Of a stretch of DNA of 55,816 nucleotides, positions 28,576 to 43,539 are shown piece after piece. The DNA lies in the IMG/VR virus record IMGVR_UViG_3300048849_000180, positions 1 to 55,816 of that record; one strand, written 5' to 3'. The notes below the pieces were generated by a model, which worked only from the letters and a program-made list of their open reading frames with translations, had not been told where the DNA came from and did not search any database. Position numbers and translations under genes: made by a program. Within the stretch, counting starts at the first letter, position 1, and each line of letters opens with the position of its first letter. The DNA comes from a virus. Taxonomy: Duplodnaviria > Caudoviricetes.

Positions 28576-28597
28576 TTACTGAATCGATGAAAACAAG

Positions 28598-28626: not shown

Positions 28627-28658
28627 GTTCTATAATACTTCGGTATTAGTTATGAGTA

Positions 28659-28982: not shown

Positions 28983-29017
28983 ATTTCAGTTTTAGTGAAA
29001 TCAAATTTTAGAACTCC

Positions 29018-29215: not shown

Positions 29216-29216
29216 A

Positions 29217-29390: not shown

Positions 29391-29395
29391 ATTAT

Positions 29396-29854: not shown

Positions 29855-29879
29855 TGAGTTAAAGGTAGAGAATATACTC

Positions 29880-29900
29880 AATATGTCAAAAAAACATTTT
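29880..29900. promoter_or_regulatory. AATATG-N9-CATATT box 3
   Basis: AATATG-tcaaaaaaa-CATTTT; minus-strand TTTG-N19-TACCTTTA promoter. Confidence 0.7.
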
Positions 29901-29949
29901 ATGACCAAGTAGCGGTTTATATGAGTAATTCTTTTAAATTAGTCGGATT

Positions 29950-30531
29950 ATGGATTTGACAGACGAACAAATAATAATTCAGCTGCAAGCAGTAAAACAA
30001 AAAAGCGAGGAGATGTATGAAAAAAGCGTCTACTTAATCTCATCTGGAACTCTACTTTTGTCTATAACTTTCATAGAAAAAATCGTCAAACTTGCAACGT
30101 CAATTATTCTATGGACGCTAATAACAAGTTGGGTATTGTTAGTCATCACTCTTTTGTTAAATCTGATTTCACATCAGGTATCTAGCCATTTCCACGGAAA
30201 AACAGTTTCGGATTTTCAGGCTAAAAATGAAAACACGATTCGTAATGTCCAGAAGCGAAATCTATGGATTTACGGTATTAACATTGCAACAAGCTCATGT
30301 TTGATTTTCGGTATTGGTTTTTTAGTATTATTTTGTTCAATAAATGTAAATAAAATGAACAGAGACACAGAACCAATTAGACCGCAGACAATCGAACCAG
30401 ATCAACAGAAAGGCATGCCTATCAATATTCCGCGAGGGCCAATTCCAAGTAGTCCTTCACTCCCGCCTTCACAGCCCAGTACAAACCCGACGCCACCCAG
30501 TACTCAACCGCCAACAGTTCCAAGTAGATAG
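29950..30531 (+). CDS. Three-TM membrane protein with a Pro-rich tail (moron)
   Basis: Hydrophobic helices and a P/S/T-rich C-terminus; opposite orientation to neighbours. Confidence 0.75.
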   Translation: MDLTDEQIIIQLQAVKQKSEEMYEKSVYLISSGTLLLSITFIEKIVKLATSIILWTLITSWVLLVITLLLNLISHQVSSHFHGKTVSDFQAKNENTIRNVQKRNLWIYGINIATSSCLIFGIGFLVLFCSINVNKMNRDTEPIRPQTIEPDQQKGMPINIPRGPIPSSPSLPPSQPSTNPTPPSTQPPTVPSR

Positions 30532-30630
30532 TTCGACATTTTACCTGGCATTTAGCCAGGTAAAATCGTTTCAGATGTGATAGTTCGCAACTCATCAACG
30601 ATTATATAGGGCCATGAGTTGCGACAGCAA

Positions 30631-31194
30631 TTAGCTTATATCCAAAGCAGACTTCCAGTTTACATTGTTCACTATACTTCGTATGGTGGCTCTACTAACA
30701 TTATAAATTTTAGACACCTTTGTTTGGTTCTTAAAGTCGCCTGACGCAAATTTTCGTTTTATTTCAATTACATCATTAAGGCTTAATTTTGCTTGTACAT
30801 GCTTTTCACCATAAACCTGATGAGATAATCCATTTACAAACGCATGGCTTTTGTTTTCCTTAGAAGTGCACCATTCGAGGTTAGAGATATCATTATTCTC
30901 TTTGTTTCCATCTATGTGGTTGACCTCTGGTTTATTACTTGGATTTGAGATAAAGGCGATCGCAACGAGTCTATGAATCACAAACTTTTTCGCGCTTCCT
31001 TTCAGGTTTAGTTCTACTCTTTTATATCCACGATGAGTAATTGTCTGTTTTAACAGGATATCAGCTCTATGAGAAATTCTTCCTCTTGATCTAACCCGAT
31101 TCCAGCCTAAGGATTTAACTCGTCCCTTACTGCTGATTTGGTAAACACCTTCATATCCTAAAATATCCTTCCAAATTTCATTTTGATTTTCCAT
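30631..31194 (-). CDS. NUMOD4-HNH homing endonuclease
   Basis: EIWKDILGYEGVYQISSKGRVKS; HRLVAIAF; VNHIDGNKENNDISNLEW. Confidence 0.93.
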   Translation of the reverse strand: MENQNEIWKDILGYEGVYQISSKGRVKSLGWNRVRSRGRISHRADILLKQTITHRGYKRVELNLKGSAKKFVIHRLVAIAFISNPSNKPEVNHIDGNKENNDISNLEWCTSKENKSHAFVNGLSHQVYGEKHVQAKLSLNDVIEIKRKFASGDFKNQTKVSKIYNVSRATIRSIVNNVNWKSALDIS

Positions 31195-31204
31195 AACGAT
31201 TTTA

Positions 31205-31305
31205 AACGAACAAAGCCAATCAGCATTTCCCAGCTTGCGATCCGGTACTCTGCCAATTGGCTTATGAATGTCTTTAGATAGCTAATCAAGGTCGCAAGTC
31301 GCTAG
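31205..31305 (-). ncRNA. Structured RNA leader copy B (AAGACAUUC motif)
   Basis: 13-bp stem 31213-31225/31251-31263 (two G-U pairs on the minus strand); loop segment 31234-31240 complementary to 31292-31298; motif at 31266-31274. Confidence 0.7.
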
Positions 31306-31334
31306 CTGAACCTAAATATAACCTAAATATTCTT

Positions 31335-31355
31335 AATATGTTATTTTAACATATT
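31335..31355. promoter_or_regulatory. AATATG-N9-CATATT box 4
   Basis: AATATG-ttattttaa-CATATT (perfect). Confidence 0.75.
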
Positions 31356-31865
31356 TTTTTTGCCGAAAATTGATTTCTTAATCAAATCAAGAGTCTTAAT
31401 TGTGAAAAGATCAGATGGTGTTACACGCAGTGTCCTCCAACCTAAAGATGCGGACATTGATATTTTATCCATATCTCTCTTAATTCCTACCCCTGAAGAG
31501 TGACCGCTATTGCCTTTCAAATGAATTCCTCCTTCAACTTCCAGGCATAGCTTGTATTCTGGCCAAGCGTAATCCATTGCATACTTACGATCAGGCATAA
31601 ACAGGAATTCCGGCCAACACGGGATACCCTCTTTTTCCATAAGCATCGTGAACATATCTTTGATCTCCGTTTTATGCTTTATGTTCAGATCATCATCCAT
31701 GCTTCCTGTGCGCCTGTACTTCTTCCTCGGTTTACGTTTTGAGCGGGCATCGGTAAACGCGATAGCCGCCGGATGGTTCGGCGGGTACAGGTTATCTCCT
31801 ACTTGCACGTAACCCCGATCCAAACAGTCCTTATAGACTGCCTTCAAAAGTGCAACTGATTTCAT
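31341..31865 (-). CDS. PD-(D/E)XK endonuclease (DUF559/Vsr-like)
   Basis: EFLF...MDYAWPEYKLCLEVEGG...DMDK...LGWRTLRVT. Confidence 0.8.
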   Translation of the reverse strand: MKSVALLKAVYKDCLDRGYVQVGDNLYPPNHPAAIAFTDARSKRKPRKKYRRTGSMDDDLNIKHKTEIKDMFTMLMEKEGIPCWPEFLFMPDRKYAMDYAWPEYKLCLEVEGGIHLKGNSGHSSGVGIKRDMDKISMSASLGWRTLRVTPSDLFTIKTLDLIKKSIFGKKNMLK

Positions 31866-31870
31866 TGCTA

Positions 31871-32128
31871 TTAATCTGCAATTATGTGTTGATAGACCTT
31901 AAATCCGGCAGCGTTTGCTTCAGGCGCGGATCTCTCAACCCAGTTAAAGTTTATAGCACGTTCGGCCGGAGCTTCAGGGAGCAGATCTCCATCAGCAACG
32001 CAGCAAACCATACCCTTGATTGTGTTATAAACAGGTCCATTAGACACGCGGGCCGCGGTCCAAGTACTCTCGTTTAGTTCTGATAGGTCCATCTCTAAGA
32101 AAGACGCTAAAGCCTCATTTTTCTCCAT
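31871..32128 (-). CDS. Hypothetical protein
   Basis: 85 aa ORF in operon context. Confidence 0.6.
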   Translation of the reverse strand: MEKNEALASFLEMDLSELNESTWTAARVSNGPVYNTIKGMVCCVADGDLLPEAPAERAINFNWVERSAPEANAAGFKVYQHIIAD

Positions 32129-32142
32129 AAAAAGTATCTTTT

Positions 32143-32586
32143 TTAATATGTTGTGAATCGTGATGGTCGATTGAAAAAGGTGAATTTTAAGAAACGAAGA
32201 TCGCTTCGATCAACCTCAACGCTGCATCCGAGCCTTTTGGCATGCAAAACGACGCTGTTTGTTACTAAGGTATCATCCATATTGTCGTTTAAATCAGCTT
32301 GGATGGTATCGCCTACCCGTTTAAATTGCAACTCCTCATAAAAGTCAGCCATTGCAACTTCAAGCCCCTCGTAAGATATAGAATCTAATCTCCATACCTT
32401 CTCTTGCTTTACAGTAGCACCGCCTTTGATCAGCATCTCTTCCATCTTGTCTAAAGATATGCTTTTTCCCTCTTTCAGGTAAATTTTCCATCCCGCAACG
32501 GTACGCCGATCGACACCAAGCGTCTTGTATATCCCGCGCCGATTGATTAAAGCTGCAAATGCCTGCTGTGTACCCTCTACTTCCAT
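32143..32586 (-). CDS. HTH-containing protein
   Basis: Likely start MEVEGT at 32586; IYKTLGVDRRTVAGWK HTH. Confidence 0.65.
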   Translation of the reverse strand: MEVEGTQQAFAALINRRGIYKTLGVDRRTVAGWKIYLKEGKSISLDKMEEMLIKGGATVKQEKVWRLDSISYEGLEVAMADFYEELQFKRVGDTIQADLNDNMDDTLVTNSVVLHAKRLGCSVEVDRSDLRFLKFTFFNRPSRFTTY

Positions 32587-32726
32587 ATCCAATAGATAAT
32601 AATCCCCGCAATAATCAGAAGTGGAAGTAGTTCCCACCAGCTGAAATGCCATGTCTTGTCAATGTCGAGTTCTGCGTCCTCTCCATTAATCCAGGCTTTT
32701 AAATACATCCAAATTCTTTTCATCAT
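32577..32726 (-). CDS. 49 aa membrane peptide (not in the ORF track)
   Basis: MMKRIWMYLKAWINGEDAELDIDKTWHFSWWELLPLLIIAGIIIYWIWK; stop overlaps the next start. Confidence 0.65.
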   Translation of the reverse strand: MMKRIWMYLKAWINGEDAELDIDKTWHFSWWELLPLLIIAGIIIYWIWK

Positions 32727-32789
32727 AATCTGTACATTTGTTTATCAGAACAAGAGGAAGAACCGGGAGCCTAGCCCCCGGTTGGTTTT

Positions 32790-32885
32790 TTAGAAGATTA
32801 CCCATCTAATGAGTCTTCTTACCGACTTGAATTTGCACTTGACCTGCACTTCAAATCCTTTCTTTGTTATGATGATTTTTATCAT
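32790..32885 (-). CDS. 31 aa basic peptide
   Basis: MIKIIITKKGFEVQVKCKFKSVRRLIRWVIF, directly after a promoter-like TATCTTTA and followed by a hairpin. Confidence 0.5.
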   Translation of the reverse strand: MIKIIITKKGFEVQVKCKFKSVRRLIRWVIF

Positions 32886-32889
32886 ACTT

Positions 32890-32934
32890 AAAGATACAAA
32901 TATGTCTTGAAATATCAAGTCTTTTTGTATCTTT
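32890..32934. promoter_or_regulatory. Palindromic operator of the small-ORF module
   Basis: AAAGATACAAA...CTTGA-aata-TCAAG...TTTGTATCTTT nested inverted repeat. Confidence 0.55.
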
Positions 32935-32990
32935 TTTTTGTTTTTTTGTAGCTTATTAAACTTTGTCTCCGACGGGAACGTTATATTACC

Positions 32991-33221
32991 ATGGAATACC
33001 ACCTTATTGACATCGAATACGATGGACAGCCCATACACATAAAGGTGAAGCGCCGGGAGTTGGGTCACGATCTCGTCTATGATTGCTATACTGGCGATGT
33101 TTTTCTTGGAGCCATCTCACCTACCTGCTGCGAGGATCCTTCGACATATTGGATAAGCAATGATATCCCGATGGAGCTGGTCCGGTTGATAGGCGACAAA
33201 ATTGACAAGCAGGACCAATGA
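32991..33221 (+). CDS. Hypothetical protein
   Basis: 76 aa ORF. Confidence 0.6.
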   Translation: MEYHLIDIEYDGQPIHIKVKRRELGHDLVYDCYTGDVFLGAISPTCCEDPSTYWISNDIPMELVRLIGDKIDKQDQ

Positions 33222-33502
33222 TATTAACCCCACCCTTTCATGCGGTGATCAGACAAAAGCTTTGCACATAAATGATCCTGGAACGCTTGTAATTAGAGCA
33301 ACATCATTATAGTGAATACACCACAAAGTTTGGAGTCGGAAAATTATTTTCCTATCTTCAGAAGAAAGCCTCTTCAATGCGAATGGCAAAACATTTATTT
33401 TTTTCGGTTAGAACGCAAATCTGGTTGCCCAAAATGAAAAATTACCTGGTAACGACAACAGGGATAGCTTTAAACAAATAGATTGCGCCTAAATTTTCTT
33501 CC

Positions 33503-33862
33503 ATGGAAAACAAGATGGTCGTTATCATAGATAGCGACGAAAGCGTACTTGAATTGTTCTCCCTAATCCTCCAAGAGGCAGGCTATGATGTCATGGCGAT
33601 CCTAAATGCAGTTCCTTATCCTTTCTCAAGTTCTCAAGCAGACCTTTTTTTAATGGACATTAGCCTGGATAATCCTACTACTAAAGAATTTTATCAGATC
33701 ATGAAGTCTGATCCAACCACTGCATCAATTCCGATCATTGTTACGAGTACCAGTACAGACCTTGAACAGAAAGCCGCGGCATTGAAAGTTCAAGGATACA
33801 TCTCTAAACCGTTTGACATTGAAGATCTCCTCCGAAAAGTTGGGGAACTAGTAGATTTATAG
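33503..33862 (+). CDS. Stand-alone response regulator receiver (CheY-like)
   Basis: VVIIDSD, DLFLMDI (phospho-Asp), IPIIVTS, YISKPFD. Confidence 0.9.
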   Translation: MENKMVVIIDSDESVLELFSLILQEAGYDVMAILNAVPYPFSSSQADLFLMDISLDNPTTKEFYQIMKSDPTTASIPIIVTSTSTDLEQKAAALKVQGYISKPFDIEDLLRKVGELVDL

Positions 33863-34072
33863 CTCGGACACCTTCCTAGGATCTATTCAGAAAATAATGG
33901 CTTGCATCACGGAGCATGTAACAGTTCCAACTTTTAGACATTCTCACATTTCCAGCATCAATATAAAACGACCTCGATTTCTTATATTCGATAGCACGCT
34001 TTCATAAATTACAAGTTATTTCTCTTCTTAAAGCCTTTTTTGTTGCATCTTTGCTTCTGAGAGCGTTAATTG

Positions 34073-34104
34073 GGGTTCAGTTGTTAGCAGCTGGGCCCTT
34101 TTTT
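34073..34104 (+). terminator. Intrinsic terminator
   Basis: GGGTTCAGTTG-ttag-CAGCTGGGCCC-TTTTTT. Confidence 0.7.
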
Positions 34105-34230
34105 ATGCTGAATTTTCCGAAACAAATTCTGTTTAAAACCTTCTAAAGCCTAAGTATTATTTTTTTATTTCAGGTATTTTCAACTTTGGTCAGACCTACC
34201 TGCCTGTTTTATTTTTGTTAAAAAAAGATC

Positions 34231-34461
34231 ATGCTAAGATTAATATATATAAGCCCAACTTTAGATTATCAACATGTTGATGCGGATAGTATCCATAAAA
34301 TTGCTGATACGGAGGCAAAACTTAAACACCAGGGTGCAGACATCGTTTGCTTAGTCGACTACCAACGCCAGTTTATCTTTAAAAAGAACGATCAATACTC
34401 CTATCATCGCGATTTCATTGAAGACTTAATATTTGGTCCTATATACGGCACGGGTAACTAA
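34231..34461 (+). CDS. Hypothetical protein
   Basis: 76 aa ORF. Confidence 0.55.
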   Translation: MLRLIYISPTLDYQHVDADSIHKIADTEAKLKHQGADIVCLVDYQRQFIFKKNDQYSYHRDFIEDLIFGPIYGTGN

Positions 34462-34620
34462 TATACTTATCAAGGAGGTAAGACGGGCTGTTTTCCTTCA
34501 TCTACAGCAGTATCTACACGGTGGCAGGGGATTGGTAAATCCCACTCGGCTTTGGTTTGTATTTAATCGTTTTCAATTGTATTTGTACCCGTCCAATGTT
34601 GGACTATAAAATCTCAATCG

Positions 34621-34821
34621 ATGAGACACTTTTTTATTTCTGCAATTGGTACTGGTCCGACTGGATTAAATATCACAAACTTTGGATTGTCTTATCATGA
34701 ATTTCCGACATTGAAAGTTCTTAGTGTATATGCAATTGATAATGGTTGTGCTGATCCAACTATTATGGGGGTTACTGAGCTTTCAAAAAAAGATTTTGAT
34801 AAACTTCTTTCTGAAAAGTAA
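34621..34821 (+). CDS. Hypothetical protein
   Basis: 66 aa ORF. Confidence 0.55.
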   Translation: MRHFFISAIGTGPTGLNITNFGLSYHEFPTLKVLSVYAIDNGCADPTIMGVTELSKKDFDKLLSEK

Positions 34822-34824
34822 CCG

Positions 34825-35268
34825 TTATCGTTTATATTCCCAAAAACTAAGCTTCCCTTTGACATTCTCGATCGGCTTGTCATAGAGCACCGGATTTGCA
34901 AGTACCCAGTTCCAAATCACTGGCACGTGCTCATGGATATCAGGATCATATTCCTCCGGTCTTTCTGCCCACACGCTCGGATGATCTTTAATGCAATCAA
35001 TAATATCAACCTCACCAACAATGCATGCATTCGGATACTTGCTCATGTGATCCGGATACCGTTCGGGAAGATTCAGTTTAAAAACATCCTTGAGCTGAGC
35101 TTGAGTAAAGCTCATTCCATTTAGCATTCCGTTAAACGGCACCGGCTTCAAAGCAGCATGAATGTATATACGACCTCTGAAGTTAGTTCTCCAGGTTCGG
35201 TTTTCAATGTCCTTAACTCCCAAGGCAATTAGCATAGCCCATGGGTTTTTGATGGTTAACGCTTTCAT
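34825..35268 (-). CDS. ASCH domain protein
   Basis: MKALTIKNPWA...GVKDIENRTW...RGRIYIHA...KGKLSFW. Confidence 0.92.
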   Translation of the reverse strand: MKALTIKNPWAMLIALGVKDIENRTWRTNFRGRIYIHAALKPVPFNGMLNGMSFTQAQLKDVFKLNLPERYPDHMSKYPNACIVGEVDIIDCIKDHPSVWAERPEEYDPDIHEHVPVIWNWVLANPVLYDKPIENVKGKLSFWEYKR

Positions 35269-35270
35269 GG

Positions 35271-35510
35271 CTAATCGAATGGATTTGTAACAGACATTCT
35301 GATCGGTTGCACGGGGCCGCCAAAGGTCAGCTGCGTGTGATAGATCCTGCCGGTTCGTACGATCTCCTCGACTTCTTCAGGGCTTAGCTCTAAGCAACAG
35401 GTCATAGGTGTTGTTGGATCTTCTGCGACGACGTGCACTGGCAGCGTTTCGTATTCCGGCTGATCCTCTGCGAGCATCAGGTTTACTTGTGGAAATGTGA
35501 TAGCTTTCAT
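35271..35510 (-). CDS. Hypothetical phage protein
   Basis: 79 aa; EDQPEYETLP...G.PVQP. Confidence 0.7.
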   Translation of the reverse strand: MKAITFPQVNLMLAEDQPEYETLPVHVVAEDPTTPMTCCLELSPEEVEEIVRTGRIYHTQLTFGGPVQPIRMSVTNPFD

Positions 35511-35521
35511 TTGGGATTGGT

Positions 35522-35620
35522 TTAAAAGTTTTCGTCGTTGTCTTCGAGTTGAACTGATCCGAAGATTGTGAATATGCCGGCGAACACACCGAGCACAACA
35601 AGGGTTGCTAAGAATATCAT
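35522..35620 (-). CDS. 32 aa single-TM peptide (not in the ORF track)
   Basis: MIFLATLVVLGVFAGIFTIFGSVQLEDNDENF, directly downstream of RNA leader A. Confidence 0.55.
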   Translation of the reverse strand: MIFLATLVVLGVFAGIFTIFGSVQLEDNDENF

Positions 35621-35645
35621 ATTATCAGGTTTAAATTGGTTGCAA

Positions 35646-35768
35646 AGCAAAAAAGAGTTCATCCCCGTTTCACTGCATCTGACCTCAGCTACTTTAGGGA
35701 AAAACTCTCTCTCGAATGTCTTTAAACCGGATTACCTACACGTAATGTCAGATGCTGCAGGTGATTGT
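35646..35768 (-). ncRNA. Structured RNA leader copy A (AAGACAUUC motif) with terminator U-tract
   Basis: Stem 35654-35665/35697-35708; loop segment 35675-35683 complementary to 35747-35755; motif at 35714-35722. Confidence 0.7.
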
Positions 35769-35793
35769 ATAACCAAACTTACAAAAAATACTC

Positions 35794-35814
35794 AACATGT
35801 CAATACTTCATATT
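35794..35814. promoter_or_regulatory. AATATG-N9-CATATT box 5
   Basis: AACATG-tcaatactt-CATATT; minus-strand -7 element TAAGTTTG at 35774-35781. Confidence 0.7.
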
Positions 35815-35822
35815 TTTTATTT

Positions 35823-36434
35823 TTAGTGAAGCCTTTCTATGATCTTTTTAAGCTCTTGATCCTGCTGATCTGTTAGGTCGTTGCGTCTCCGGAAATACTT
35901 CAGCAGCTGAGATACCTCGTTGCTCCGATGGTAGTACTTATCAAGCAGAATAGCGTCGAAACATTTCTTGTTCTTGTGAAGGAATGGAGCTTGCTTTACA
36001 ATCGTCGAATAAAATGGGGTGGTATAGATCAGGCCGGCGTAGGCTGGCACCTCTTCAGGTTTAATCAATCCTTCAGGGCAGGCGTAAAAGAATTTGTTTG
36101 GCAGGCACTCGCAAGGCTTGGTCCACTTGATCATTGATGACTTTGGGTGGATCCATTCACCATCGTGGACAAATGCATGCTCGGTGGCATCATATATTTT
36201 CTTACAAAATGCATACTCTTTGTGCCTGGTGAACAGTGCATGCTTTTCCGTCTTGTGAGTAAAGTCTTTCTTGAAATCGGCCTTACTGATCTTCACCTCT
36301 ACCTCTACGCTATATCCGGATTTGCTGATAGCAAAGAAGTCGGATTCCCAAGCGAAAACGAAAGTGTTAAGCAGAGGGTATTCGTAATTTCTAAAGAAGG
36401 CTCTAACAGCCTCGTGTACTTCGCGTGTTGTCAT
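35823..36434 (-). CDS. MmcB-like PD-(D/E)XK nuclease
   Basis: ESD...EVEVKISKADFKKD...PNKFFYACP...EVPAYAGLI. Confidence 0.75.
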   Translation of the reverse strand: MTTREVHEAVRAFFRNYEYPLLNTFVFAWESDFFAISKSGYSVEVEVKISKADFKKDFTHKTEKHALFTRHKEYAFCKKIYDATEHAFVHDGEWIHPKSSMIKWTKPCECLPNKFFYACPEGLIKPEEVPAYAGLIYTTPFYSTIVKQAPFLHKNKKCFDAILLDKYYHRSNEVSQLLKYFRRRNDLTDQQDQELKKIIERLH

Positions 36435-36850
36435 TAGCAGCCGAATTTATCGAAGTAGTCAAGGAAGAAAATGTACCTACCTTTGGTGAAGAAACCCCAC
36501 CTGAAGTTATCTTTGAACCGAATCACTAACGTGTAGGCTGGCTTGCCATCAATTAACATCACTCTGTGTGCATGTGATGCTTTAAGGAAAATAATTGTTC
36601 CAGGTAAAACCCGTTTAATGTTGTACATTTTGCCTTCACCCGCTTTAGCAAAGGTCTGCTCGTGGTATCCACGCCAAAGAATGATGGATATAAAGTTCCA
36701 CGGATGGTTATGTAGATCATCAGCATCGCTTCGATGGAATTTATGGAAGTATATTGCAAGCATCCTTGTTTTAAACAGGATCCATCTCGTAAGATATGGC
36801 AGATGGGCGTCTCCGCGGCCCTCACATCCGGTAATTATCAGCTTTTTCAT
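36434..36850 (-). CDS. Cupin-like His-rich phage protein
   Basis: HKFHRSDADDLHNHPW...GYHE...HRV. Confidence 0.65.
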   Translation of the reverse strand: MKKLIITGCEGRGDAHLPYLTRWILFKTRMLAIYFHKFHRSDADDLHNHPWNFISIILWRGYHEQTFAKAGEGKMYNIKRVLPGTIIFLKASHAHRVMLIDGKPAYTLVIRFKDNFRWGFFTKGRYIFFLDYFDKFGC

Positions 36851-37140
36851 CGCTTGCGCTTTTTAATTTGTGAATGATTTTTGAATTCTTCGATCCGCCT
36901 AGCTTGCAACTCTACCAGGATATCTTCTACCTTCCGGTAGTCTTCGCGCATCTTCGTCATCAGGGAATCAAAACTGTGATCATCGATGGCAGCTGCAGTG
37001 TCCAGGCCTTCAGAAAATCCATTCAATCGACCGCTGGAATAACCCTGCTCATAGCCAGCCTGTTTGCCACCGAAGAAAACGGCGATTGTAACCACCCACC
37101 CCAAAAGGAAGGGCCATGTTGATTTTAAAATCTTTTTCAT
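36847..37140 (-). CDS. Hypothetical membrane protein
   Basis: Likely start MKKILK; TM plus GYxxG repeats. Confidence 0.6.
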   Translation of the reverse strand: MKKILKSTWPFLLGWVVTIAVFFGGKQAGYEQGYSSGRLNGFSEGLDTAAAIDDHSFDSLMTKMREDYRKVEDILVELQARRIEEFKNHSQIKKRKR

Positions 37141-37141
37141 T

Positions 37142-37423
37142 TTAAACCTCCTGTAGTTCGTTTTCCAAAATAGACTCAAGTTCGATCGACGTCGGCGGCA
37201 TGAGTTCACGGAAGCGTTCAATAGCAAATCTGCATTCAGCCCAACCGTCTGCATACTCCAGCACTGGATTTAAGATCTCTTCGAGTCTAATGCCATTGTC
37301 GATATCCCGTATCGTATATATCTTGTTTTTAACAGGATATACGACACCGCATTGCTCATTGCACATTTTGTCCTCTATGTCCCAGTCATCATCAACCAGT
37401 TCAACCAATGATCCTACTCTCAT
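37142..37423 (-). CDS. Hypothetical protein
   Basis: 93 aa, operonic. Confidence 0.65.
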   Translation of the reverse strand: MRVGSLVELVDDDWDIEDKMCNEQCGVVYPVKNKIYTIRDIDNGIRLEEILNPVLEYADGWAECRFAIERFRELMPPTSIELESILENELQEV

Positions 37424-37602
37424 GATTTATGTTTTAAGTCGTCCAGGTAAAAAATAGCTAATAGTAGCAGCGCTGCGATTCCCCCGATGCCAATATATAT
37501 CACTTGCTCAACGTCAATAAATAAACTACAGATCTCTAGAATTGCGATCACAGCCGCACCGAACCCAATCATCAAAAGGGTTGTTATTTTATTTTCACTC
37601 AT
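37420..37602 (-). CDS. Small two-TM protein
   Basis: ATGA overlaps at both ends. Confidence 0.6.
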   Translation of the reverse strand: MSENKITTLLMIGFGAAVIAILEICSLFIDVEQVIYIGIGGIAALLLLAIFYLDDLKHKS

Positions 37603-37832
37603 GCTACTACCTCCTTCACCTCAAAGCAGCCCCTACAAGCCGCGTCCGCATCCCGAACGACCACTAACCCCAACGCAAGGCTTTTTATCAATCCTGCGGC
37701 TTTATTCGATGCTTTTTCGACATCCACGACACTGCGCACCTCGATGCTATTTTTTAATTTCTTGAATTTTGAAGGATCGTACTTCTCTATGAAGATTTCC
37801 AGATCCGATTTTTGGTTGTTTAAATCGCTCAT
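37599..37832 (-). CDS. Hypothetical protein
   Basis: 77 aa, operonic. Confidence 0.6.
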   Translation of the reverse strand: MSDLNNQKSDLEIFIEKYDPSKFKKLKNSIEVRSVVDVEKASNKAAGLIKSLALGLVVVRDADAACRGCFEVKEVVA

Positions 37833-37886
37833 AATGTGCGTTTTTCTTTTAGTTTGTGAATTTTGGGAATTAGGATTTTCTGTATA

Positions 37887-38696
37887 TCAGGATAAGATCT
37901 CCTCTTTTTTAACTTGTAAGAGTTGCTTTAGGTCGGCATCTTCCATAATCAAGGTTTGAAAGTAGGCGTACAGGCCAAGGCGTTGTGCATGGATGATGAT
38001 CTTATCTTCCATCTTCTGGCTGTTGTTTAGGGTTCTTCCAATATCGATTCGCTTGAACTTATCCAGCGTATTGGCTTGTTCGGTGGTCAGTTCATTTATG
38101 ACCTCATTGGTGGCTTCAGAGATAAATACCCTCTGCTCTTGCTCTGAATACGAAAAGCACTTGATTCCACGAAGGAAGCGGTAAACGACCGGAGCGATCA
38201 ATGAAATGTCTTTGCGAAGCTTGTAGGTCTCAAAGGCATTTACGGCATTGGAAGCGGCAAGATCAAACCTTTCCTCCTGGGTTGGTTCGGGTTTAACCTC
38301 TTGTGCAGGCTTAGTGAGGTTTATCCTGTCTTCCTCCTTCATGTAGCTTTTGATCCACTCAACGAAGGTGACGAAGCTAAGGCCCATGTAATCGCCATAC
38401 TCTTTTGCAAGCCCCCTGGTGAAGGCGATGCTGATCTCCTCTACTCGCAGGTTGCCAAATCTTGACTTTGCCATCTTCATGGTTTCATCGACGATAACTG
38501 TCAGCTCGATCCCTTCCGGCGCTGCGAACCTGGATATCACGTAACACTTGGAAATGTTCGATTTAAAGATTTCAAAAAGTTCAGGCTCGGAAAGATCTTT
38601 GATCATTTTGCTTGATAGCGCCACTTTTATTTCAGATACCCTTTGTGGAAGACCTGACAGACTGTTTGGCTGCTGGTATAGTTGAATTTCACTCAT
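37887..38696 (-). CDS. Replication-associated protein (helicase-loader position)
   Basis: Coupled to the initiator gene by an ATGA overlap. Confidence 0.6.
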   Translation of the reverse strand: MSEIQLYQQPNSLSGLPQRVSEIKVALSSKMIKDLSEPELFEIFKSNISKCYVISRFAAPEGIELTVIVDETMKMAKSRFGNLRVEEISIAFTRGLAKEYGDYMGLSFVTFVEWIKSYMKEEDRINLTKPAQEVKPEPTQEERFDLAASNAVNAFETYKLRKDISLIAPVVYRFLRGIKCFSYSEQEQRVFISEATNEVINELTTEQANTLDKFKRIDIGRTLNNSQKMEDKIIIHAQRLGLYAYFQTLIMEDADLKQLLQVKKEEILS

Positions 38697-39553
38697 GGTT
38701 TTGGTAGATAAGGGTTGACGACTTCGTTGTATGATTTCTGTAGTTTTTCGAACTTGGATAGTTGAGTATTATGGTGGCCAAGCTTGGATTTTTCAATTTC
38801 AAGTTTTGCCGCCCAGTTTTCTTGGTTCCAGGCTCCATCGGTGAACAGTTTGCTAGCAGATCCGAGGAACTTTGAAAACGAATGAATGAAAGCAGTCCCA
38901 TTGGTTATTTTTTTGTATTCGAAGTAGGCGTCCATTTGATCTTCGAAATATTTCAGTTTGTCTGCTATTGCAATGCATTTGAGAAAATCAGACGTGTCGC
39001 GAAATTTATCAAAGTTGGCCACCTCATTGAAGTTGAAATATCTCATGGTTTTTTCTAGAAGATTTTCATCTACCTGAGGAGTGAGTGAGCCTCCTTCCCT
39101 ATCCCCTTCCATTCCCTGTTCTATTTCCTCTTCCCTTTCCTTTCCCTTCCCTTCCGGCAGTGAGTCCTCAGTGAGTCCTCCATGAGCATTCACTGAATCT
39201 GCATTTAATATGCTTTCAAGTATGTTTTTTGGTATTTTTGAAGGTGTTGGACGATTTATTTTCTGATGGGCTTTAAAAGTTCTAACCAATAAGAACTTCT
39301 CGGAATTATACTCGAATGGAATGAGCATTTTCTTTGAAATAAGAGCTTCAATCCAGGTTCGAACATCAGCAATTGAAAGGTCTTCATCATAGGCAAATAT
39401 CTGCCCTTTGATGAATGCTGGAGTAGCTTTCAATACTCCCTCGTCATCTGCCAAATTCAATAGCCCAAGGAAGAGTAACCGCTCATCACGCTTAAGCTCC
39501 CCGACCTTTTCATCAGTCCAGAATTCAGGTTTAATTGTTCGTATTCTTCCCAT
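38693..39553 (-). CDS. Phage replication initiator
   Basis: MGRIRTIKPEFWTDEK...ADDEG...HQKINRPTPS; central low-complexity linker. Confidence 0.85.
   Translation of the reverse strand: MGRIRTIKPEFWTDEKVGELKRDERLLFLGLLNLADDEGVLKATPAFIKGQIFAYDEDLSIADVRTWIEALISKKMLIPFEYNSEKFLLVRTFKAHQKINRPTPSKIPKNILESILNADSVNAHGGLTEDSLPEGKGKEREEEIEQGMEGDREGGSLTPQVDENLLEKTMRYFNFNEVANFDKFRDTSDFLKCIAIADKLKYFEDQMDAYFEYKKITNGTAFIHSFSKFLGSASKLFTDGAWNQENWAAKLEIEKSKLGHHNTQLSKFEKLQKSYNEVVNPYLPKP
39075..39196. repeat. Putative replication origin (iterons and polypyrimidine tract)
   Basis: CAGTGAGTCCT x2 plus CCATGAGCATT at 11-bp period (39158-39190); GAGTGAGTGAG; C/T-rich tract 39090-39155 inside the initiator gene. Confidence 0.6.
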
Positions 39554-39570
39554 GGGGACTATTGATTAGG

Positions 39571-39675
39571 AAACATTACCCTGCACACCAAAGGTTGGTA
39601 GCTTGGATCGAATGCAGAACGCATAAGATGGTGTACAGGGTAATGTTTGAATGTCTTACGGCTACCAACCGAACC
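39571..39675 (-). ncRNA. Structured RNA leader copy C (AAGACAUUC motif)
   Basis: 20-bp stem 39571-39590/39629-39648 (one G-U pair on the minus strand); loop segment 39593-39602 complementary to 39661-39670; motif at 39649-39657. Confidence 0.75.
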
Positions 39676-39708
39676 GCTAATTTAATTACTTATTTCCAAA
39701 TTATACTT

Positions 39709-39729
39709 AATATGTTTTTATAACATATT
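39709..39729. promoter_or_regulatory. AATATG-N9-CATATT box 6
   Basis: AATATG-tttttataa-CATATT (perfect). Confidence 0.75.
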
Positions 39730-39734
39730 ATTAG

Positions 39735-40237
39735 TCAAAAAGGGGGTATATTCCTGTTCATTTTAGATGGCAAAACTATTGTCACAGCATTGGATCCGGT
39801 GTAAGGTCGATACCGTTTTACGATCTTACACCGGATCCTTTATGCATACCTATTCGGTTGCCAATCTCTTGTAGCGTTAGTCCTTGACTATATAATTCGC
39901 ATATGACGCCATATTTCGGCTGCAGCTTTCGCTTTCTTGGCAACCGATGCTTCAAGAGTCTGTGATTATTGCTGATCTCCATTATCCTTGCTTTGGTCTG
40001 CTCAGGTAGTTTCCCGGTATTAAGGAATAGCACCAATGCCCTGAGCTCAACATTCAGGGTCCTTGCTTTTGAAACCTTATCCTTACGGTGCCGCTTATTT
40101 AGCTTCATCTCTCTCCTTCTTGTTTCGATACCTTTTACTGTCCTTCCCAGATGCCTTGCGATCTCCTGGTCGGTTAAGATGGAATGATTATCAATGATAA
40201 ATTCAATCTCCCTCTGCGAATACTTATTTGCCATCAT
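39735..40237 (-). CDS. Double-HTH protein, probably frameshifted near the C-terminus
   Basis: Two HTH-like segments; the second breaks at GMHKGS, and an alternate frame continues CKIVKRY...VLPSKMN to TGA at 39735. Confidence 0.6.
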
Positions 40238-40252
40238 ACAAACATTTAAGAT

Positions 40253-40483
40253 TTACAAAATTTCAGATGTGAAAGGCCGCAAGTCTCGAGGATTGCAGTA
40301 AAACACCCTCCTCTCGCTATCTCTGACCTTCGCGTTGCCCGTACTATTCTGCAGGCTGATGATCGTTACTTCTTCAGTCATCGACTTGAATACTTCATTG
40401 ACCCGGCACACAGTTGCTGGCGTACCTGTAATGTTTGCCTTGCTTCTACCTGGTATAAGGAAGGCTTTGTCTCCGTTTTTCAT
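40253..40483 (-). CDS. Hypothetical SH3-like protein
   Basis: 76 aa, operonic. Confidence 0.55.
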   Translation of the reverse strand: MKNGDKAFLIPGRSKANITGTPATVCRVNEVFKSMTEEVTIISLQNSTGNAKVRDSERRVFYCNPRDLRPFTSEIL

Positions 40484-40827
40484 ATATGGTTTTTTACTAA
40501 TTTGACTTTACTTCGAAAGGATCTGCTTGTGTCCATGCATTGTTGAAAGGAATCACGAGCATGAATAACTGTTGCATAATGCCTGTTGAATATCTTCCCT
40601 ACTTTCTTGAGTGTTATAGATGTGTTGGTTGATAAAATGAGTGATATCGCAATACATCTTGCCTCGACGATATCGGCTAACCTTGATGAGCTGTATAATT
40701 GTTCCTCAGTCACTTCAAGAGCCTCGCATACGGCTTTGATTATGACTTGGGGTTCGACTTTCTTAATAGACTGCACGATCATATGCTTTTTTCGCTCAGG
40801 CAAACCTGCGAAGATGATTGGATCCAT
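40480..40827 (-). CDS. DnaA C-terminal-like HTH protein
   Basis: SSSRLADIVEARCIA...TLKKVGKIFNRHYATVIHA. Confidence 0.85.
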   Translation of the reverse strand: MDPIIFAGLPERKKHMIVQSIKKVEPQVIIKAVCEALEVTEEQLYSSSRLADIVEARCIAISLILSTNTSITLKKVGKIFNRHYATVIHARDSFQQCMDTSRSFRSKVKLVKNHI

Positions 40828-40866
40828 AATTCTGAGTTTTAGTATTGGAACCTGTTAATTGAGTGA

Positions 40867-42246
40867 TTACTCCCCGAACTTGATCAGCGGCTGAATGGAT
40901 CCGTCTGGATAAACAGTATCCATTGGGGTGTCAGCAGTCGGCTCTTCACCGGTCCACTTGTTTGGCCACAGGTTCTCGGCCCAACACTTTCTTATGAAAG
41001 CCTGCTCTTCGTCGTTCAAAAGGGATATGGTTGGCATACCTAACTTGATAGCCTGTTCATTTATTTCATTTTGAATCTTGATAATTTCATTGAAGGCCCA
41101 TTCCCTGGCGCCCATGGTCAGTGGTCCCATACGTTGCTTGTTTTTTTCGTTAGATTGTTCAAAGCCTGTTTTACGGAGTCGGTTCTGAGCTTTACGTAGC
41201 TCCCGGAATATAGGGCGAAGACGTTTGATCGGCGCCAGATACTTCCATTTCGGCTTTGTCAAGATGTTATCGATGGCTGTATCCTTGTCGGTAAGTGGGC
41301 AGCCGGAACATCCGGTGCGAGCATTTATCTCTTCAGCCTCATCGCCACCGTACACTTCAGCAATTAGCTCTGTTGAGAAGTCCCCATATTTGGGAAGCGG
41401 TGCCCAGTGCTTTAACCATTCCCAAACATGGCATACCCTCCAGTGTAGGATCGGCGCGAGCGTGTCACATAATGATTTTGGCAGCGTCTCCTGGTACCAA
41501 CCCTGGCCACACTCAGCTCCATTCTTACCGCAACTCATAATGATTCGCTGATCACGGATAGCAGACTCACCCTGGCGAACACCAGTTAGCATCAAAACCT
41601 TTTCCCCGAGTTCACCAACAAGATTTTCAAGCGCCTTCTCCATAGGTTCAATCTTGATCCTGGACGTACACCATCTGAAAGTAGCGTTGTTAGGCGGAGG
41701 CACACCACGGCCGAGCATGTAGGTCAGGAATCTGTTTTCAAGCGAGGCCATTACGACTTCCACTTCAAACCCATGCTCAGCGAGCTCTTCCATGATCGTC
41801 TGAGCGGCAACATACAGTGGCAGCATCTCCAACCTGGTATCAGCGTACATGATGTAGATCTTCTTTGGCGGCTCGATCTGTTTTGAGATGATCAAGTAAA
41901 CGATAAGTGTAACCAGGGTGGTGCTATCCTTACCACCTGACCAGGCCATACACCAGTAGTTGTATTTTGGTCCGTATGCCTTTAGCGACTGAATGGTAAG
42001 TTCAATACTTTCATTCATTTGTAAGCGCTTGGTGCCGGCGAACATATTCGATTGTTCGTATTTAACCCTAACCGCCTGAATCTCGGATTTTAAGATCATG
42101 ACTGTCTTATTCTCCCTTTCACGTCCTTTTAAGTCAAATTTCACACGGCAATAGTCCGGGAACACGGAAGAGCAATTCTTCAGGAATTCTCCGGTTCGGC
42201 CTTCATGTTTGCCGGCAACAACTTTGATCTTGTCTCCTGTTTTCAT
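40867..42246 (-). CDS. PAPS-reductase family (DndC-like) protein with an N-terminal KOW-like domain
   Basis: WSGGKDS PP-loop, RWCT..IKI.P, LTGVRQGES, RTGCSGCP; start MKTGDK overlaps the upstream stop (TAATG). Confidence 0.85.
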   Translation of the reverse strand: MKTGDKIKVVAGKHEGRTGEFLKNCSSVFPDYCRVKFDLKGRERENKTVMILKSEIQAVRVKYEQSNMFAGTKRLQMNESIELTIQSLKAYGPKYNYWCMAWSGGKDSTTLVTLIVYLIISKQIEPPKKIYIMYADTRLEMLPLYVAAQTIMEELAEHGFEVEVVMASLENRFLTYMLGRGVPPPNNATFRWCTSRIKIEPMEKALENLVGELGEKVLMLTGVRQGESAIRDQRIIMSCGKNGAECGQGWYQETLPKSLCDTLAPILHWRVCHVWEWLKHWAPLPKYGDFSTELIAEVYGGDEAEEINARTGCSGCPLTDKDTAIDNILTKPKWKYLAPIKRLRPIFRELRKAQNRLRKTGFEQSNEKNKQRMGPLTMGAREWAFNEIIKIQNEINEQAIKLGMPTISLLNDEEQAFIRKCWAENLWPNKWTGEEPTADTPMDTVYPDGSIQPLIKFGE

Positions 42247-43538: not shown

Positions 43539-43539
43539 A

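What the first reader, a model, noticed from the sequence alone, without database searches (positions are those of the whole stretch)
31205..39675. Three divergent copies of an apparently undescribed structured RNA leader (5' segment / AAGACAUUC / hairpin with complementary loop)
Seen: three minus-strand intergenic elements (B 31205-31305, A 35646-35768, C 39571-39675) share little primary sequence except AAGACATTC, yet have the same layout. First comes a 5' segment (B CUUGCGA, A GCAUCUGAC, C GGUUGGUAGC), then AAGACAUUC 0-5 nt before a 12-20 bp hairpin, whose loop holds the exact complement of the 5' segment (UCGCAAG, GUCAGAUGC, GCUACCAACC). Four of the five non-Watson-Crick stem positions are G-U on the minus strand, which points to RNA and to that strand. 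Each element lies just downstream of an AATATG-N9-CATATT box and upstream of a gene harmful in a lysogen: the replication initiator, an HNH nuclease, and a small TM peptide. Established: P4 CI RNA and P1 C4 RNA use loop-to-leader pairing (seqA/seqB) to attenuate lytic transcription. Inference: this is an analogous Bacteroidota phage RNA switch with three orthogonal address codes and a shared protein-binding or processing motif.
Basis: partly seen in the sequence, partly recalled or inferred. Interest (0 to 1): 0.92.

Follow-up and report, generated by a model that had tools for sequence, protein, structure and literature searches.

The report
New pseudoknotted leader RNA in Pedobacter phages
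Three operons of this temperate soil phage begin with copies of an uncatalogued folded RNA leader, in which the 5' segment pairs with the loop of a long hairpin; relatives occur only in a few Pedobacter prophages, and its function is still unknown.

Summary
All three minus-strand elements have the stated layout, and I found 11 more copies in 7 related phages or prophages, giving 14 copies in 8 genomes. Pairing is well supported. In 10 replication-leader (C-type) copies, 91% of 272 cells pair and 22 of 29 pairs change on both sides. With partners slid out of register, only 34-45% pair. The 5'-segment/loop helix was not part of the search models. It still reappears with unrelated sequences in four new hits.

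Rfam 15 has no match. The window is a whole 55.8 kb temperate phage genome. Its relatives are Pedobacter prophages, found in 6 of 151 genus genomes sampled and in none of 150 other Bacteroidota.

- In A and B the 5' segment sits in the loop of its own upstream hairpin, so the contact is loop-loop.
- The A/B hairpin carries an AGUA/GAAA internal loop.
- The shared linker is really AAGAMAUUY.

The "address codes" are most simply structural covariation of a fold that forms in cis, not orthogonal trans codes. The P4/P1 analogy is neither shown nor excluded. The function is inferred only. I favour control of transcript elongation or read-through (about 0.4). This is an interesting new RNA family with a narrow distribution.

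The parts
39709..39729 (-). AATATG-N9-CATATT box (promoter/operator element) upstream of leader C
   Evidence: Exact match. It ends 36-39 nt before the 5' segment in all 8 box-type copies.
39661..39670 (-). Leader C, 5' segment 'a' (GGUUGGUAGC), strand 1 of the pseudoknot helix P1
   Evidence: Perfectly complementary to 39593-39602. Compensatory changes in relatives.
39649..39657 (-). Leader C, conserved single-stranded linker AAGACAUUC
   Evidence: Present as AAGAMAUUY in all 14 copies.
39571..39648 (-). Leader C, long hairpin P2. Arms 39648-39630 and 39589-39571 (19 bp). Loop holds mini-hairpin P3 (39624-39612) and the complement a' (39602-39593).
   Evidence: RNA fold z = -4.9. P2 covaries at 17 of 19 pairs over 10 copies. 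P3 is present with different sequences in all 10 by my reading of the alignment.
38693..39553 (-). Replication-initiator-like gene served by leader C
   Evidence: PHROG replication initiation families, E 2e-29 to 2.5e-30.
35794..35814 (-). Box (one mismatch) upstream of leader A
35734..35762 (-). Leader A, hairpin HP1 (stem ACCUGCA/UGUAGGU). The 5' segment GCAUCUGAC (35755-35747) lies in its loop.
   Evidence: The same arrangement occurs in the A-type copy of contig G153.
35714..35722 (-). Leader A, linker AAGACAUUC
35649..35713 (-). Leader A, composite hairpin P2: outer stem, AAAGUA/GAAAC internal loop, 4-bp inner stem GCUG/CAGU, apical loop with a' GUCAGAUGC (35683-35675), U-rich tail
35522..35620 (-). 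Small hydrophobic peptide ORF (32 aa from the ATG at 35620) behind leader A, followed by 79-aa and ASCH-domain ORFs
   Evidence: A homologous 35-aa peptide follows the A-type leader of G153.
31335..31355 (-). Box upstream of leader B; it overlaps the stop codon of the upstream 174-aa gene
31281..31306 (-). Leader B, hairpin HP1 (GCUAG/UUAGC) with the 5' segment CUUGCGA (31298-31292) in its loop
   Evidence: The Pedobacter metabolipauper copy has GCUAAC/GUUAGU and GUUGCGA.
31266..31274 (-). Leader B, linker AAGACAUUC
31213..31263 (-). Leader B, composite hairpin P2: 13-bp outer stem, GAGUA/GAAA internal loop, inner stem CCGG/CUGG, apical loop with a' UCGCAAG (31240-31234), U-rich tail
30631..31194 (-). 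NUMOD4/HNH_3 homing-type endonuclease gene behind leader B
   Evidence: Pfam E 2e-13 and 9e-10; PHROG 59 E 1e-52.

Best explanation
Layer 1, about 0.9 likely. The three elements are paralogues of one uncatalogued family of structured 5'-leader RNAs of temperate Pedobacter phages. The RNA is read from the gene-sense strand. It starts at or shortly after the transcription start.

The fold has these parts:
- A 5' segment (a) pairs over 7-11 bp with a complementary stretch (a') in the loop of a long hairpin P2, which is about two helical turns high. This makes a pseudoknot.
- In the A/B subtype, a sits in the loop of its own hairpin, so the contact is a loop-loop kiss.
- Between a and P2 lies an unpaired linker, AAGAMAUUY. 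It is almost the only primary sequence kept in all copies.
- The differing "codes" are compensated substitutions in this helix.

Layer 2, mechanism, inferred, about 0.4. The fold works in cis on the transcript that carries it, after initiation, as a gate on elongation or read-through.
- The nascent compact RNA, through the invariant linker, engages the elongating RNA polymerase or a host elongation factor. The general logic is that of HK022 put or lambda nut boxA-plus-hairpin.
- In the A/B subtype, P2 followed by a U-rich tail also doubles as a terminator or attenuator at an operon junction.

Shown: the anatomy, the covariation, the strand, the position behind promoters, and the gene context. 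Inferred: everything about what the fold does.
For: Structure.
- A/B alignment, 4 copies: 94.7% of 95 cells pair and 12 of 24 pairs change on both sides. With partners slid, 35-44% pair.
- C-type, 4 copies: 97.3% of 113 cells pair, 10 of 29 pairs change on both sides.
- C-type, 10 copies: 91.2% of 272 cells pair, 22 of 29 pairs change on both sides, and 0 of 500 shuffles reach any of the five measures. With partners slid, 34-45% pair. The pseudoknot helix alone is 90.5% paired with 5 of 10 pairs compensated, although two rows are out of register.

Independent prediction.
- Models R2 and R3 contained no a:a' pairs.
- The four hits whose 5' segments differ from the training set still have Watson-Crick runs of 7-10 to the loop: AAGAUUGACA, GUUCGCC, GGCCGUCA and UUGCGAUC.
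- Shuffles reach these in 1, 370, 60 and 130 of 5000.

Cis rather than trans.
- No other copy of any code exists in the phage genome.
- P2 is 17-20 bp in all 10 C-type copies despite different sequences. That fits a geometric constraint on a single fold.

Strand. 19 G-U against 3 A-C cells.

Promoter proximity.
- The 5' segment begins 36-39 nt after the box in all 8 box-type copies, whatever the subtype.
- It begins 4-12 nt after a TAnnTTTG motif in 4 of the 6 other prophages. That this motif is the Bacteroidota -7 promoter element is recalled.

Context.
- The C-type always precedes the first gene of a replication module.
- A/B copies sit at operon junctions with no other terminator before them. 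All 4 have at least 5 U in the 8 nt after P2 by my reading.

The linker is kept across phages that have different operators. That points to a shared host partner or an RNA-intrinsic role.

Known precedent. HK022 put RNAs are about 70 nt and have two stem-loops. They lie behind the early promoters, putL right at the start of the transcript. They occur as two diverged copies per phage and act without a phage protein (passages of PMC9378689).
Against: - There are no expression data. The single run holding this DNA is a DNA library.
- No terminator that would need to be overridden has been shown inside the operons. The simple terminator scan of 28000-41000 found 15 sites against 9.5 expected, and none is convincing inside the C operon.
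- Only 2 of 10 C-type copies have a U-run after P2, so attenuation cannot be the common function.
- Leader B serves a single-gene operon, where processive antitermination has little to do.
- No NusG-like or known antiterminator protein was seen among the 40 phage proteins scanned. That is neutral for a protein-free model.
- The family is small and closely related (14 copies, 8 genomes), so part of the covariation statistic reflects shared descent.
- The P2 columns of the 10-copy alignment were fitted to the model.
Confidence: 0.4

Rival explanations
1. The fold buries the 5' end of the mRNA, or presents a processing site. It hides the 5' terminus from the host's 5'-end-dependent RNase E/G-type nuclease and so stabilises the operon mRNA. 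Alternatively the exposed linker is the cleavage site that removes the leader.
For: - In 4 of the 6 non-box prophages the 5' segment starts 4-12 nt after a TAnnTTTG motif, so it is at or near the RNA 5' end.
- The host Pedobacter metabolipauper encodes an RNase E/G family protein (E 1e-98) and gave no RNase J C-terminal domain match.
- The linker ...AC/AUU... fits the RNase E preference RN/WUU. That motif is recalled and is a weak one.
- Stabilisation by 5' stem-loops is an established principle in E. coli (recalled).
Against: - A plain 5' hairpin would be enough. The model does not explain the invariant linker, the AGUA/GAAA loop, P3 or the two-turn P2.
- In the window phage the 5' segment lies 36-39 nt after the box, probably 10-25 nt into the RNA, so it is not at the very end there.
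- No transcript ends are known.
Confidence: 0.2
2. The fold is a sensor. It could be a riboswitch for a small molecule or ion, or the binding site of a host or phage protein that sets translation or transcription of the operon behind it.
For: - It is a compact multi-helix fold with a conserved unpaired strand.
- It has a loop-E-like AGUA/GAAA internal loop and a loop-loop contact, building blocks also used by known riboswitches (recalled).
- It sits in a 5' UTR.
- Three copies in one phage could give a coordinated response.
Against: - Very few positions are conserved apart from the 9-nt linker, which is fewer than in most ligand pockets.
- The start codon lies 15-35 nt beyond P2 in open AU-rich sequence and is not sequestered.
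- No expression platform common to both subtypes was found.
- No candidate RNA-binding protein was found among the 40 proteins scanned.
Confidence: 0.15
3. This is a P4 CI / P1-P7 C4-like RNA immunity device. The hairpin is cut out as a stable small RNA. Its loop pairs in trans with the 5' segment of new transcripts of the same operon and shuts them off. The different codes set the specificity (heteroimmunity).
For: - The complementary 5' segment and loop are real and differ between operons and between phages.
- In A/B both partners are presented in hairpin loops, as in fast antisense pairs.
- A/B hairpins end in U-rich tails, so a discrete RNA of about 100 nt could be released.
- The phage is temperate: integrase 1-1203 and an S24 repressor at 54576-55235.
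- In P1/P7, compensated differences of this kind do define heteroimmunity (recalled).
Against: - No match to any Rfam family, including the C4-type ones, even at E up to 10.
- There is one complementary pair per element, not the two target sites of C4.
- The partners are 60-90 nt apart on the same RNA, so pairing in cis should win.
- Three separate self-directed repressors in one genome are not parsimonious.
- The constant P2 height fits a single fold.
- C-type copies lack a terminator-like 3' end.
- No RNase P-like processing signal was identified.
Confidence: 0.1
4. It is a self-cleaving ribozyme. The order of helices in the C-type (a, P2 5' strand, P3 hairpin, a', P2 3' strand) is the same as P1-P2-P3-P1'-P2' of HDV-like ribozymes.
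For: Same nested pseudoknot order. Self-cleaving ribozymes are common in phage genomes (recalled).
Against: - No Rfam HDV-type hit.
- There is no P4 and no conserved C between a' and the P2 3' strand. That spacer is UUU, UUUC, UUAAC, UUUA, AUUU and so on.
- A 12-nt conserved strand occupies the place of the normally short J1/2.
- Cleavage 5' of a would remove only a few nucleotides.
- The A/B subtype does not fit the topology.
Confidence: 0.04

Closest known systems
HK022 put RNAs (putL, putR), cis-acting processive antitermination RNAs
   Same: - Encoded directly behind early phage promoters.
- Present as several diverged copies per phage that keep the structure rather than the sequence.
- Built from two helical arms with a tertiary element.
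- Need no phage protein (PMC9378689, passages).
   Different: - put is about 70 nt, V-shaped, has no loop/5'-segment pseudoknot, and is from lambdoid coliphages.
- The present RNA is about 100-115 nt, pseudoknotted or kissing, with an invariant 9-nt linker.
- Binding to RNA polymerase is untested here.
P4 CI RNA and P1/P7 C4 antisense RNAs (Rfam C4 family and the c4-a1b1 motif)
   Same: - A leader of a temperate phage in which a hairpin loop is complementary to an upstream segment of the same transcript.
- Compensated differences between related phages.
- In P4, a position in front of replication genes (all recalled).
   Different: - No covariance-model match.
- One pair of sites instead of two.
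- No evidence of excision or action in trans.
- Bacteroidota host rather than Proteobacteria.
Lambda nut sites (boxA plus boxB)
   Same: A short conserved linear element next to a hairpin, in early-operon leaders upstream of replication genes (recalled).
   Different: - No sequence likeness to boxA.
- The hairpin is about 19 bp with a large structured loop, not a 5-bp stem with a pentaloop.
- No N-like protein was identified.
Pseudoknot activators of rep translation in IncI-alpha/IncB plasmids (repZ/repA leader with Inc antisense RNA)
   Same: A hairpin loop in the leader of a replication-initiator gene pairs with a distant complementary stretch of the same mRNA (recalled).
   Different: - There the distal partner abuts the rep ribosome-binding site, and a leader peptide and an antisense RNA are essential.
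- Here both partners lie upstream of the hairpin's 3' arm.
- The start codon is free.
- No leader peptide is conserved.
HDV-like ribozymes
   Same: Order of the three helices in the C-type.
   Different: No P4, no catalytic C, a long conserved J1/2, and no Rfam match.

Membership tests
Any Rfam 15 family (4227 models) | Covariance-model score at or above the gathering threshold | tested here: not met
   0 matches in the whole window at gathering thresholds. In 31000-40000 at E up to 10 there were only 4 chance-level hits, none overlapping the elements.
C4 / CI antisense RNA (P1, P7, P4) | Match to the C4-type covariance models | tested here: not met
   no hit.
C4 / CI antisense RNA (P1, P7, P4) | Two loop sequences complementary to two target sites repeated upstream and downstream in the same operon | tested here: not met
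   One a/a' pair per element. No further copy of any code in the genome.
C4 / CI antisense RNA (P1, P7, P4) | Excision of a stable small RNA (RNase P dependent) that acts in trans | not testable with these tools
   No RNA run holds the sequence.
HK022 put RNA | About 70-nt two-stem RNA directly behind an early promoter, present in more than one copy per phage | tested here: inconclusive
   The position and copy number fit. The size (about 100-115 nt) and the pseudoknot do not fit the description in PMC9378689.
HK022 put RNA | Binds the RNA polymerase beta' zinc-binding domain and suppresses termination without protein factors | not testable with these tools
   Needs in-vitro transcription.
HDV-like ribozyme | P1-P2-P3-P1.1-P4 double pseudoknot with a catalytic C in J4/2 | tested here: not met
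   The helix order matches only in part. There is no P4 and no conserved C between a' and the P2 3' strand in 10 of 10 C-type copies. No Rfam hit.
Intrinsic terminator / attenuator | G+C-rich hairpin immediately followed by a U tract | tested here: inconclusive
   Met in 4 of 4 A/B copies and in 2 of 10 C-type copies, by my reading. The loops are far larger (25-46 nt) than in ordinary terminators. The simple scan did not list them because its loop limit is 8.
Pseudoknot / kissing-loop tertiary pairing (structural class) | Two helices in a-b-a'-b' order, both supported by compensatory change | tested here: met

The most novel reading that the evidence does not exclude
The fold is a new protein-independent class of nascent-RNA regulator of Bacteroidota RNA polymerase, a functional counterpart of put with an unrelated architecture. 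Its 5' end threads into the loop of a two-turn hairpin, and the invariant AAGAMAUUY strand contacts the polymerase. The phage places it at the head of each operon that must be read through or held back. A bolder variant is also not excluded: the variable a/a' helices double as phage-specific and operon-specific RNA immunity codes, as in P1/P7.
Probability: 0.2. Interest if true: 0.85.

Novelty: new variant of a known kind. Interest (0 to 1): 0.6.

Why it matters
- Structured cis-acting RNAs that control phage early operons are known almost only from coliphages (nut, put, P4 CI, P1 C4). Little is known about post-initiation control in Bacteroidota, which do not rely on Shine-Dalgarno pairing and use unusual promoters (recalled).
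- This is a compact, well-covarying, pseudoknotted leader with an invariant 9-nt strand. It always sits in front of replication modules. It is a concrete, experimentally tractable entry point, because one carrier is a prophage in a cultured type strain, Pedobacter metabolipauper DSM 19035.
- Three diverged paralogues in one genome are natural compensatory mutants.
- If the function is polymerase modification or RNA immunity, it would be the first example of that kind in this phylum. If it is only an mRNA stabiliser, it is a modest addition to the list of RNA motifs.

Tried and rejected
- Rfam. Gathering thresholds on the whole window and E up to 10 on 31000-40000: nothing relevant.
- BLAST against 50,697 phage records. 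megablast of 31000-40000 and blastn of leader C: no match.
- Exact-pattern scans of IMG/VR.
  - Box plus linker: 12 stretches, of which only 2 are real (L085, and L088 which is the L003 contig).
After structural filtering only the two already known copies remained, so that scan is incomplete.
- Model R1 (A/B type).
  - Over 18 held loci: only the known copies plus one weak hit in L103 (E 0.74).
  - Over 151 Pedobacter genomes: 2 hits. One is G001 itself. The other, G047, is an ordinary terminator.
- Hits judged false after reading them: G161/L278 and G215/L279, G075/L281, G253/L282, and one descriptor hit at L285 7867 in coding sequence.
- Relatives without the element.
  - Pedobacter sp. PAMC26386 prophage: Rep 65% identical, nothing upstream.
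  - L255 and L256: only the stretch after the 203-aa homologue was read.
  - G152 has no A/B copy after its 203-aa homologue.
  - Of the 80 Rep-related IMG/VR loci kept (of 286 relatives), only L001 and L003 carry AAGACATTC upstream of the gene.
- Other occurrences of AAGACATTC in the window (11393 +, 52627 -) are coding sequence with no structure.
- Search for second targets of the codes in the genome: none.
- Sequencing runs: no RNA holder listed. The only holder is a DNA run of a soil metagenome that may be the source.
- Literature.
  - A full-text search for the 9-mer gave 420 papers. The 15 listed were unrelated primers or viral sequences, seen as a search listing only.
  - A search on put/antitermination gave PMC9378689. 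I read passages of it by term search, not the whole text.
  - I ran no search aimed at showing that the motif is unpublished. "Uncatalogued" rests on Rfam alone.
  - Supplementary files were not consulted.
- I considered a DNA-level reading, with inverted repeats as protein sites, and rejected it. Three different pairs in one phage would need three proteins, and the G-U excess is strand-specific.
- P3 could not be counted with the pair-counting tool because its columns are in four different registers in alignment A8. Its presence in 10 of 10 copies is my reading.
- The stem finder stops at the second mismatch, so its bracketed "(2)" is not a mismatch count.
- The predicted-structure, complex and protein-atlas tools were not used.

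Full report
**What the window is.** The window is the whole record, a 55,816-base virus genome. It is temperate. A tyrosine integrase lies at 1-1203 (+) and an S24-peptidase (CI/LexA-type) repressor at 54576-55235 (+). Almost all other genes are on the minus strand, including a T4-type large terminase at 24934-26391. The only sequencing run that holds the DNA is a soil metagenome DNA run, possibly its source. The closest relatives are Pedobacter prophages.

**Check of the observation.** The three elements are as described (coordinates).
- Each has a 5' segment, then AAGACAUUC, then a long hairpin whose loop contains the exact complement of the 5' segment.
- After 20000 shuffles of the 60 nt upstream of each linker, a Watson-Crick run as long as the observed one (7, 9 or 10 nt) appears in 505, 55 and 30 shuffles for B, A and C.
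- The 9-mer occurs five times in the window. The two other occurrences are in coding sequence and lack the structure.
- The AATATG-N9-CATATT box is real, with 8 copies at no more than one mismatch against 0.30 expected. It is a general element of this phage.
- On the minus strand every box is followed by a (G/A)(A/C)G(T/C)ATA-like motif.
- In four of the five boxes without a leader, a start codon follows within about 15-26 nt.
- So the leaders are inserts of about 130-150 nt between one promoter type and three particular operons.

- In A and B the 5' segment lies in the loop of a separate upstream hairpin, HP1 (A: ACCUGCA/UGUAGGU; B: GCUAG/UUAGC).
- The downstream hairpin of A and B is composite. 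It has an outer stem, an internal loop with AGUA on the 5' side and GAAA on the 3' side, a 4-bp inner stem, and an apical loop that carries the complement. That the internal loop resembles the loop-E or S-turn signature is a recalled comparison.
- The contact in A and B is therefore a loop-loop kiss.
- A and B align with each other in one register.
- C is a second subtype. Its 5' segment is followed after 3 nt by the linker. P2 is an uninterrupted helix of 19 bp. Its loop of about 38 nt holds a mini-hairpin (P3), a purine-rich stretch, the complement a', and then UUU before the 3' arm of P2.

**Relatives.**
- Protein-guided searches with the Rep-like protein and with the 203-aa protein that lies between leaders C and A found three close relatives.
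  - A prophage of Pedobacter metabolipauper DSM 19035 has one C-type and one B-type copy.
  - IMG/VR contig G153, a 22.9 kb fragment, has one C-type and one A-type copy.
  - Provirus G152 has a C-type copy only.
  - These were read.
- Covariance models then found further C-type copies.
  - R2 was built from 4 copies and R3 from 9, with P2 and a short 5' stem only and no pseudoknot.
  - New copies were in Pedobacter genomes G024, G038, G073, G079 and G104, and in G294 of the same family.
- Tallies:

| Search | Genomes with a hit at E <= 0.01 | Judged real |
|---|---|---|
| R3, genus sample | 7 of 151 | 6 (one false) |
| R3, family sample | 4 of 151 | 3 |
| R3, phylum sample | 1 of 151 | the centre genome only |
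| R1 (A/B model), genus sample | 2 of 151 | G001 only |

- A descriptor scan of up to 10 kb on each side, as far as the contigs reach, in the six new prophages found no second copy.
- The total is 14 copies in 8 genomes: C x10, A x2, B x2.
- Some close relatives lack the element, for example the Pedobacter sp. PAMC26386 prophage.

**Covariation.**
- A/B alignment: 94.7% of 95 cells pair. 12 of 24 pairs change on both sides. In the kissing helix 3 of 7 pairs differ between A and B, all compensated. Slid controls give 35-44%.
- Four C-type copies: 97.3% of cells pair, 10 of 29 pairs change on both sides.
- Ten C-type copies: 91.2% of 272 cells pair. 22 of 29 pairs change on both sides. No shuffle of 500 reaches any measure. 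Slid controls give 34-45%. The pseudoknot helix is 90.5% paired, with 5 of 10 pairs compensated, although the rows for G038 and G073 are out of register.
- The P2 columns of that alignment were fitted to the model, so they lean towards P2. The pseudoknot columns were not modelled.
- The cleanest test is predictive. Four new hits have 5' segments unlike the training set (AAGAUUGACA, GUUCGCC, GGCCGUCA, UUGCGAUC). Each has its exact complement in the loop. Shuffles reach these runs in 1, 370, 60 and 130 of 5000.
- P3 is present in all ten copies with unrelated stem sequences. That is my reading, because the registers differ.
- G-U cells outnumber A-C cells 19 to 3, which sets the strand.

**Conserved features and context.**
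- The linker reads AAGACAUU(C/U/A) in 13 copies and AAGAAAUUU in one.
- P2 is 17-20 bp in all ten C-type copies.
- The 5' segment begins 36-39 nt after the box in all eight box-type copies, whatever the subtype. It begins 4-12 nt after a TAnnTTTG motif in four of the six others. That this motif is the Bacteroidota -7 promoter element is recalled.
- The six distant prophages have other palindromes in place of the box.
- Downstream of the C-type is always the first gene of a replication module.
  - A Rep-like initiator follows in four copies (window, P. metabolipauper, G153, G024).
  - A 485-aa helicase with an RPYQ motif follows in two (G038, G294).
  - A P-loop helicase-like protein follows in G079.
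  - Other proteins follow in G104, G152 and G073. The helicase labels are my reading of the translations, not family searches.
- A/B copies precede a small hydrophobic peptide in three of four cases and the HNH endonuclease in the fourth.
- A/B copies sit directly after the stop codon of the preceding operon. All four have a U-rich tail after P2.

**Interpretation.**
- The data establish a cis-encoded, sense-strand, pseudoknotted leader family.
- The different "codes" are what one expects of a structural helix. They are compensated and unique in the genome, and A and B are in register.
- Covariation alone cannot tell a structural helix from a specificity-determining one, as in P1/P7 C4 (recalled).
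- Against the trans model:
  - The partners lie close together on one RNA.
  - The height of P2 is constant.
  - There is only a single pair of sites.
  - C-type copies lack a 3' end signal.
  - There is no Rfam C4-type match.
- A topological point, which is inference. A helix of 19 bp cannot easily form inside a loop already closed by a:a'. A short free 5' end, by contrast, can wind into the loop of a preformed P2. This fits the position of the 5' segment close to the RNA start.

**Mechanism.** None is shown.
- I favour control of elongation or read-through, at about 0.4. The reasons are these:
  - The position sits immediately behind promoters of early or replication operons.
  - One phage carries several diverged copies.
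  - The invariant single strand is shared by phages with different operators, which implies a common host partner or the polymerase itself.
  - The A/B copies look like terminators at operon junctions.
  - put RNA is a precedent (PMC9378689, passages).
- Weaknesses of this view:
  - No downstream terminators have been demonstrated.
  - Leader B serves a single-gene operon.
  - C-type copies are not terminator-like.
- Second choice, about 0.2: sequestration of the 5' end or processing. The host has an RNase E/G homologue and gave no RNase J C-terminal domain match.
- A ligand or protein sensor is at about 0.15, trans immunity at about 0.1 and a ribozyme at about 0.04.

**Novelty and value.**
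- The element matches no Rfam 15 family and no record among 50,697 phage genomes. I did not search the literature specifically for this motif. The 9-mer search returned nothing relevant among the 15 papers listed of 420.
- Its distribution is narrow: Pedobacter and one family relative.
- It is a solid new RNA family with unusually clear covariation for its size and a cultured host for experiments. Its interest depends on the function, which remains open.

Noticed in passing
window 17919, 23536, 27633, 29880, 31335, 35794, 39709, 46767 (21-nt boxes): A palindromic AATATG-N9-CATATT box occurs 8 times against 0.3 expected. On the minus strand it is always followed by a (G/A)(A/C)G(T/C)ATA-like motif. 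In four of the five copies without a leader, a start codon follows within about 15-26 nt. It looks like a phage-specific promoter/operator class that drives most lytic operons, possibly with near-leaderless mRNAs. The canonical early promoter region next to the repressor gene (about 54480) lacks the box.
   Followed up: partly
window 32793-34825: A roughly 2 kb island without minus-strand ORFs lies inside the otherwise minus-strand genome. It carries plus-strand ORFs, including a stand-alone response-regulator receiver domain protein (33503-33862, Pfam E 8e-12). A bidirectional terminator-like hairpin at 32761-32785 flanks it. It may be a moron cassette.
   Followed up: no
window 39792-39838 (minus strand): A perfect 14-bp inverted repeat (arms 39838-39825 and 39805-39792) spans the stop codon of the 139-aa HTH gene, just upstream of the box of leader C. 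It is probably the terminator of the preceding operon, although no U tract follows.
   Followed up: no
window 40480-45629: This cluster holds an SNF2-family helicase, PcfK-like and PcfJ-like proteins, a 464-aa PAPS-reductase-domain protein (PHROG 12882, E 3e-174) and a small protein with a DnaA C-terminal HTH domain. It lies upstream of the replication leader. PcfJ/PcfK are better known from conjugative elements (recalled).
   Followed up: no
window 30631-31194 with 31205-31355: A free-standing NUMOD4/HNH_3 homing-type endonuclease has its own box promoter and its own copy of the leader. In the Pedobacter metabolipauper prophage the same leader subtype instead precedes a small membrane peptide. 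The promoter-leader unit therefore seems to move independently of the gene behind it.
   Followed up: partly
window 35522-35620; L101 about 4674-4781; L095 about 7819-7932: Small single-pass hydrophobic peptides (32-37 aa) follow three of the four A/B-type leaders. The window and G153 peptides share a ...(L)(E/D)DND(E/V)NF C-terminus. Their role is unknown; a holin-like, exclusion or type I toxin-like function is possible.
   Followed up: no
window 54150-54330 (minus strand): By eye, the first early ORF after the canonical promoter translates to a sequence ending like a LuxR/GerE-type helix-turn-helix. It would be a candidate for the factor that reads the AATATG boxes. This was not checked with any family search.
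   Followed up: no
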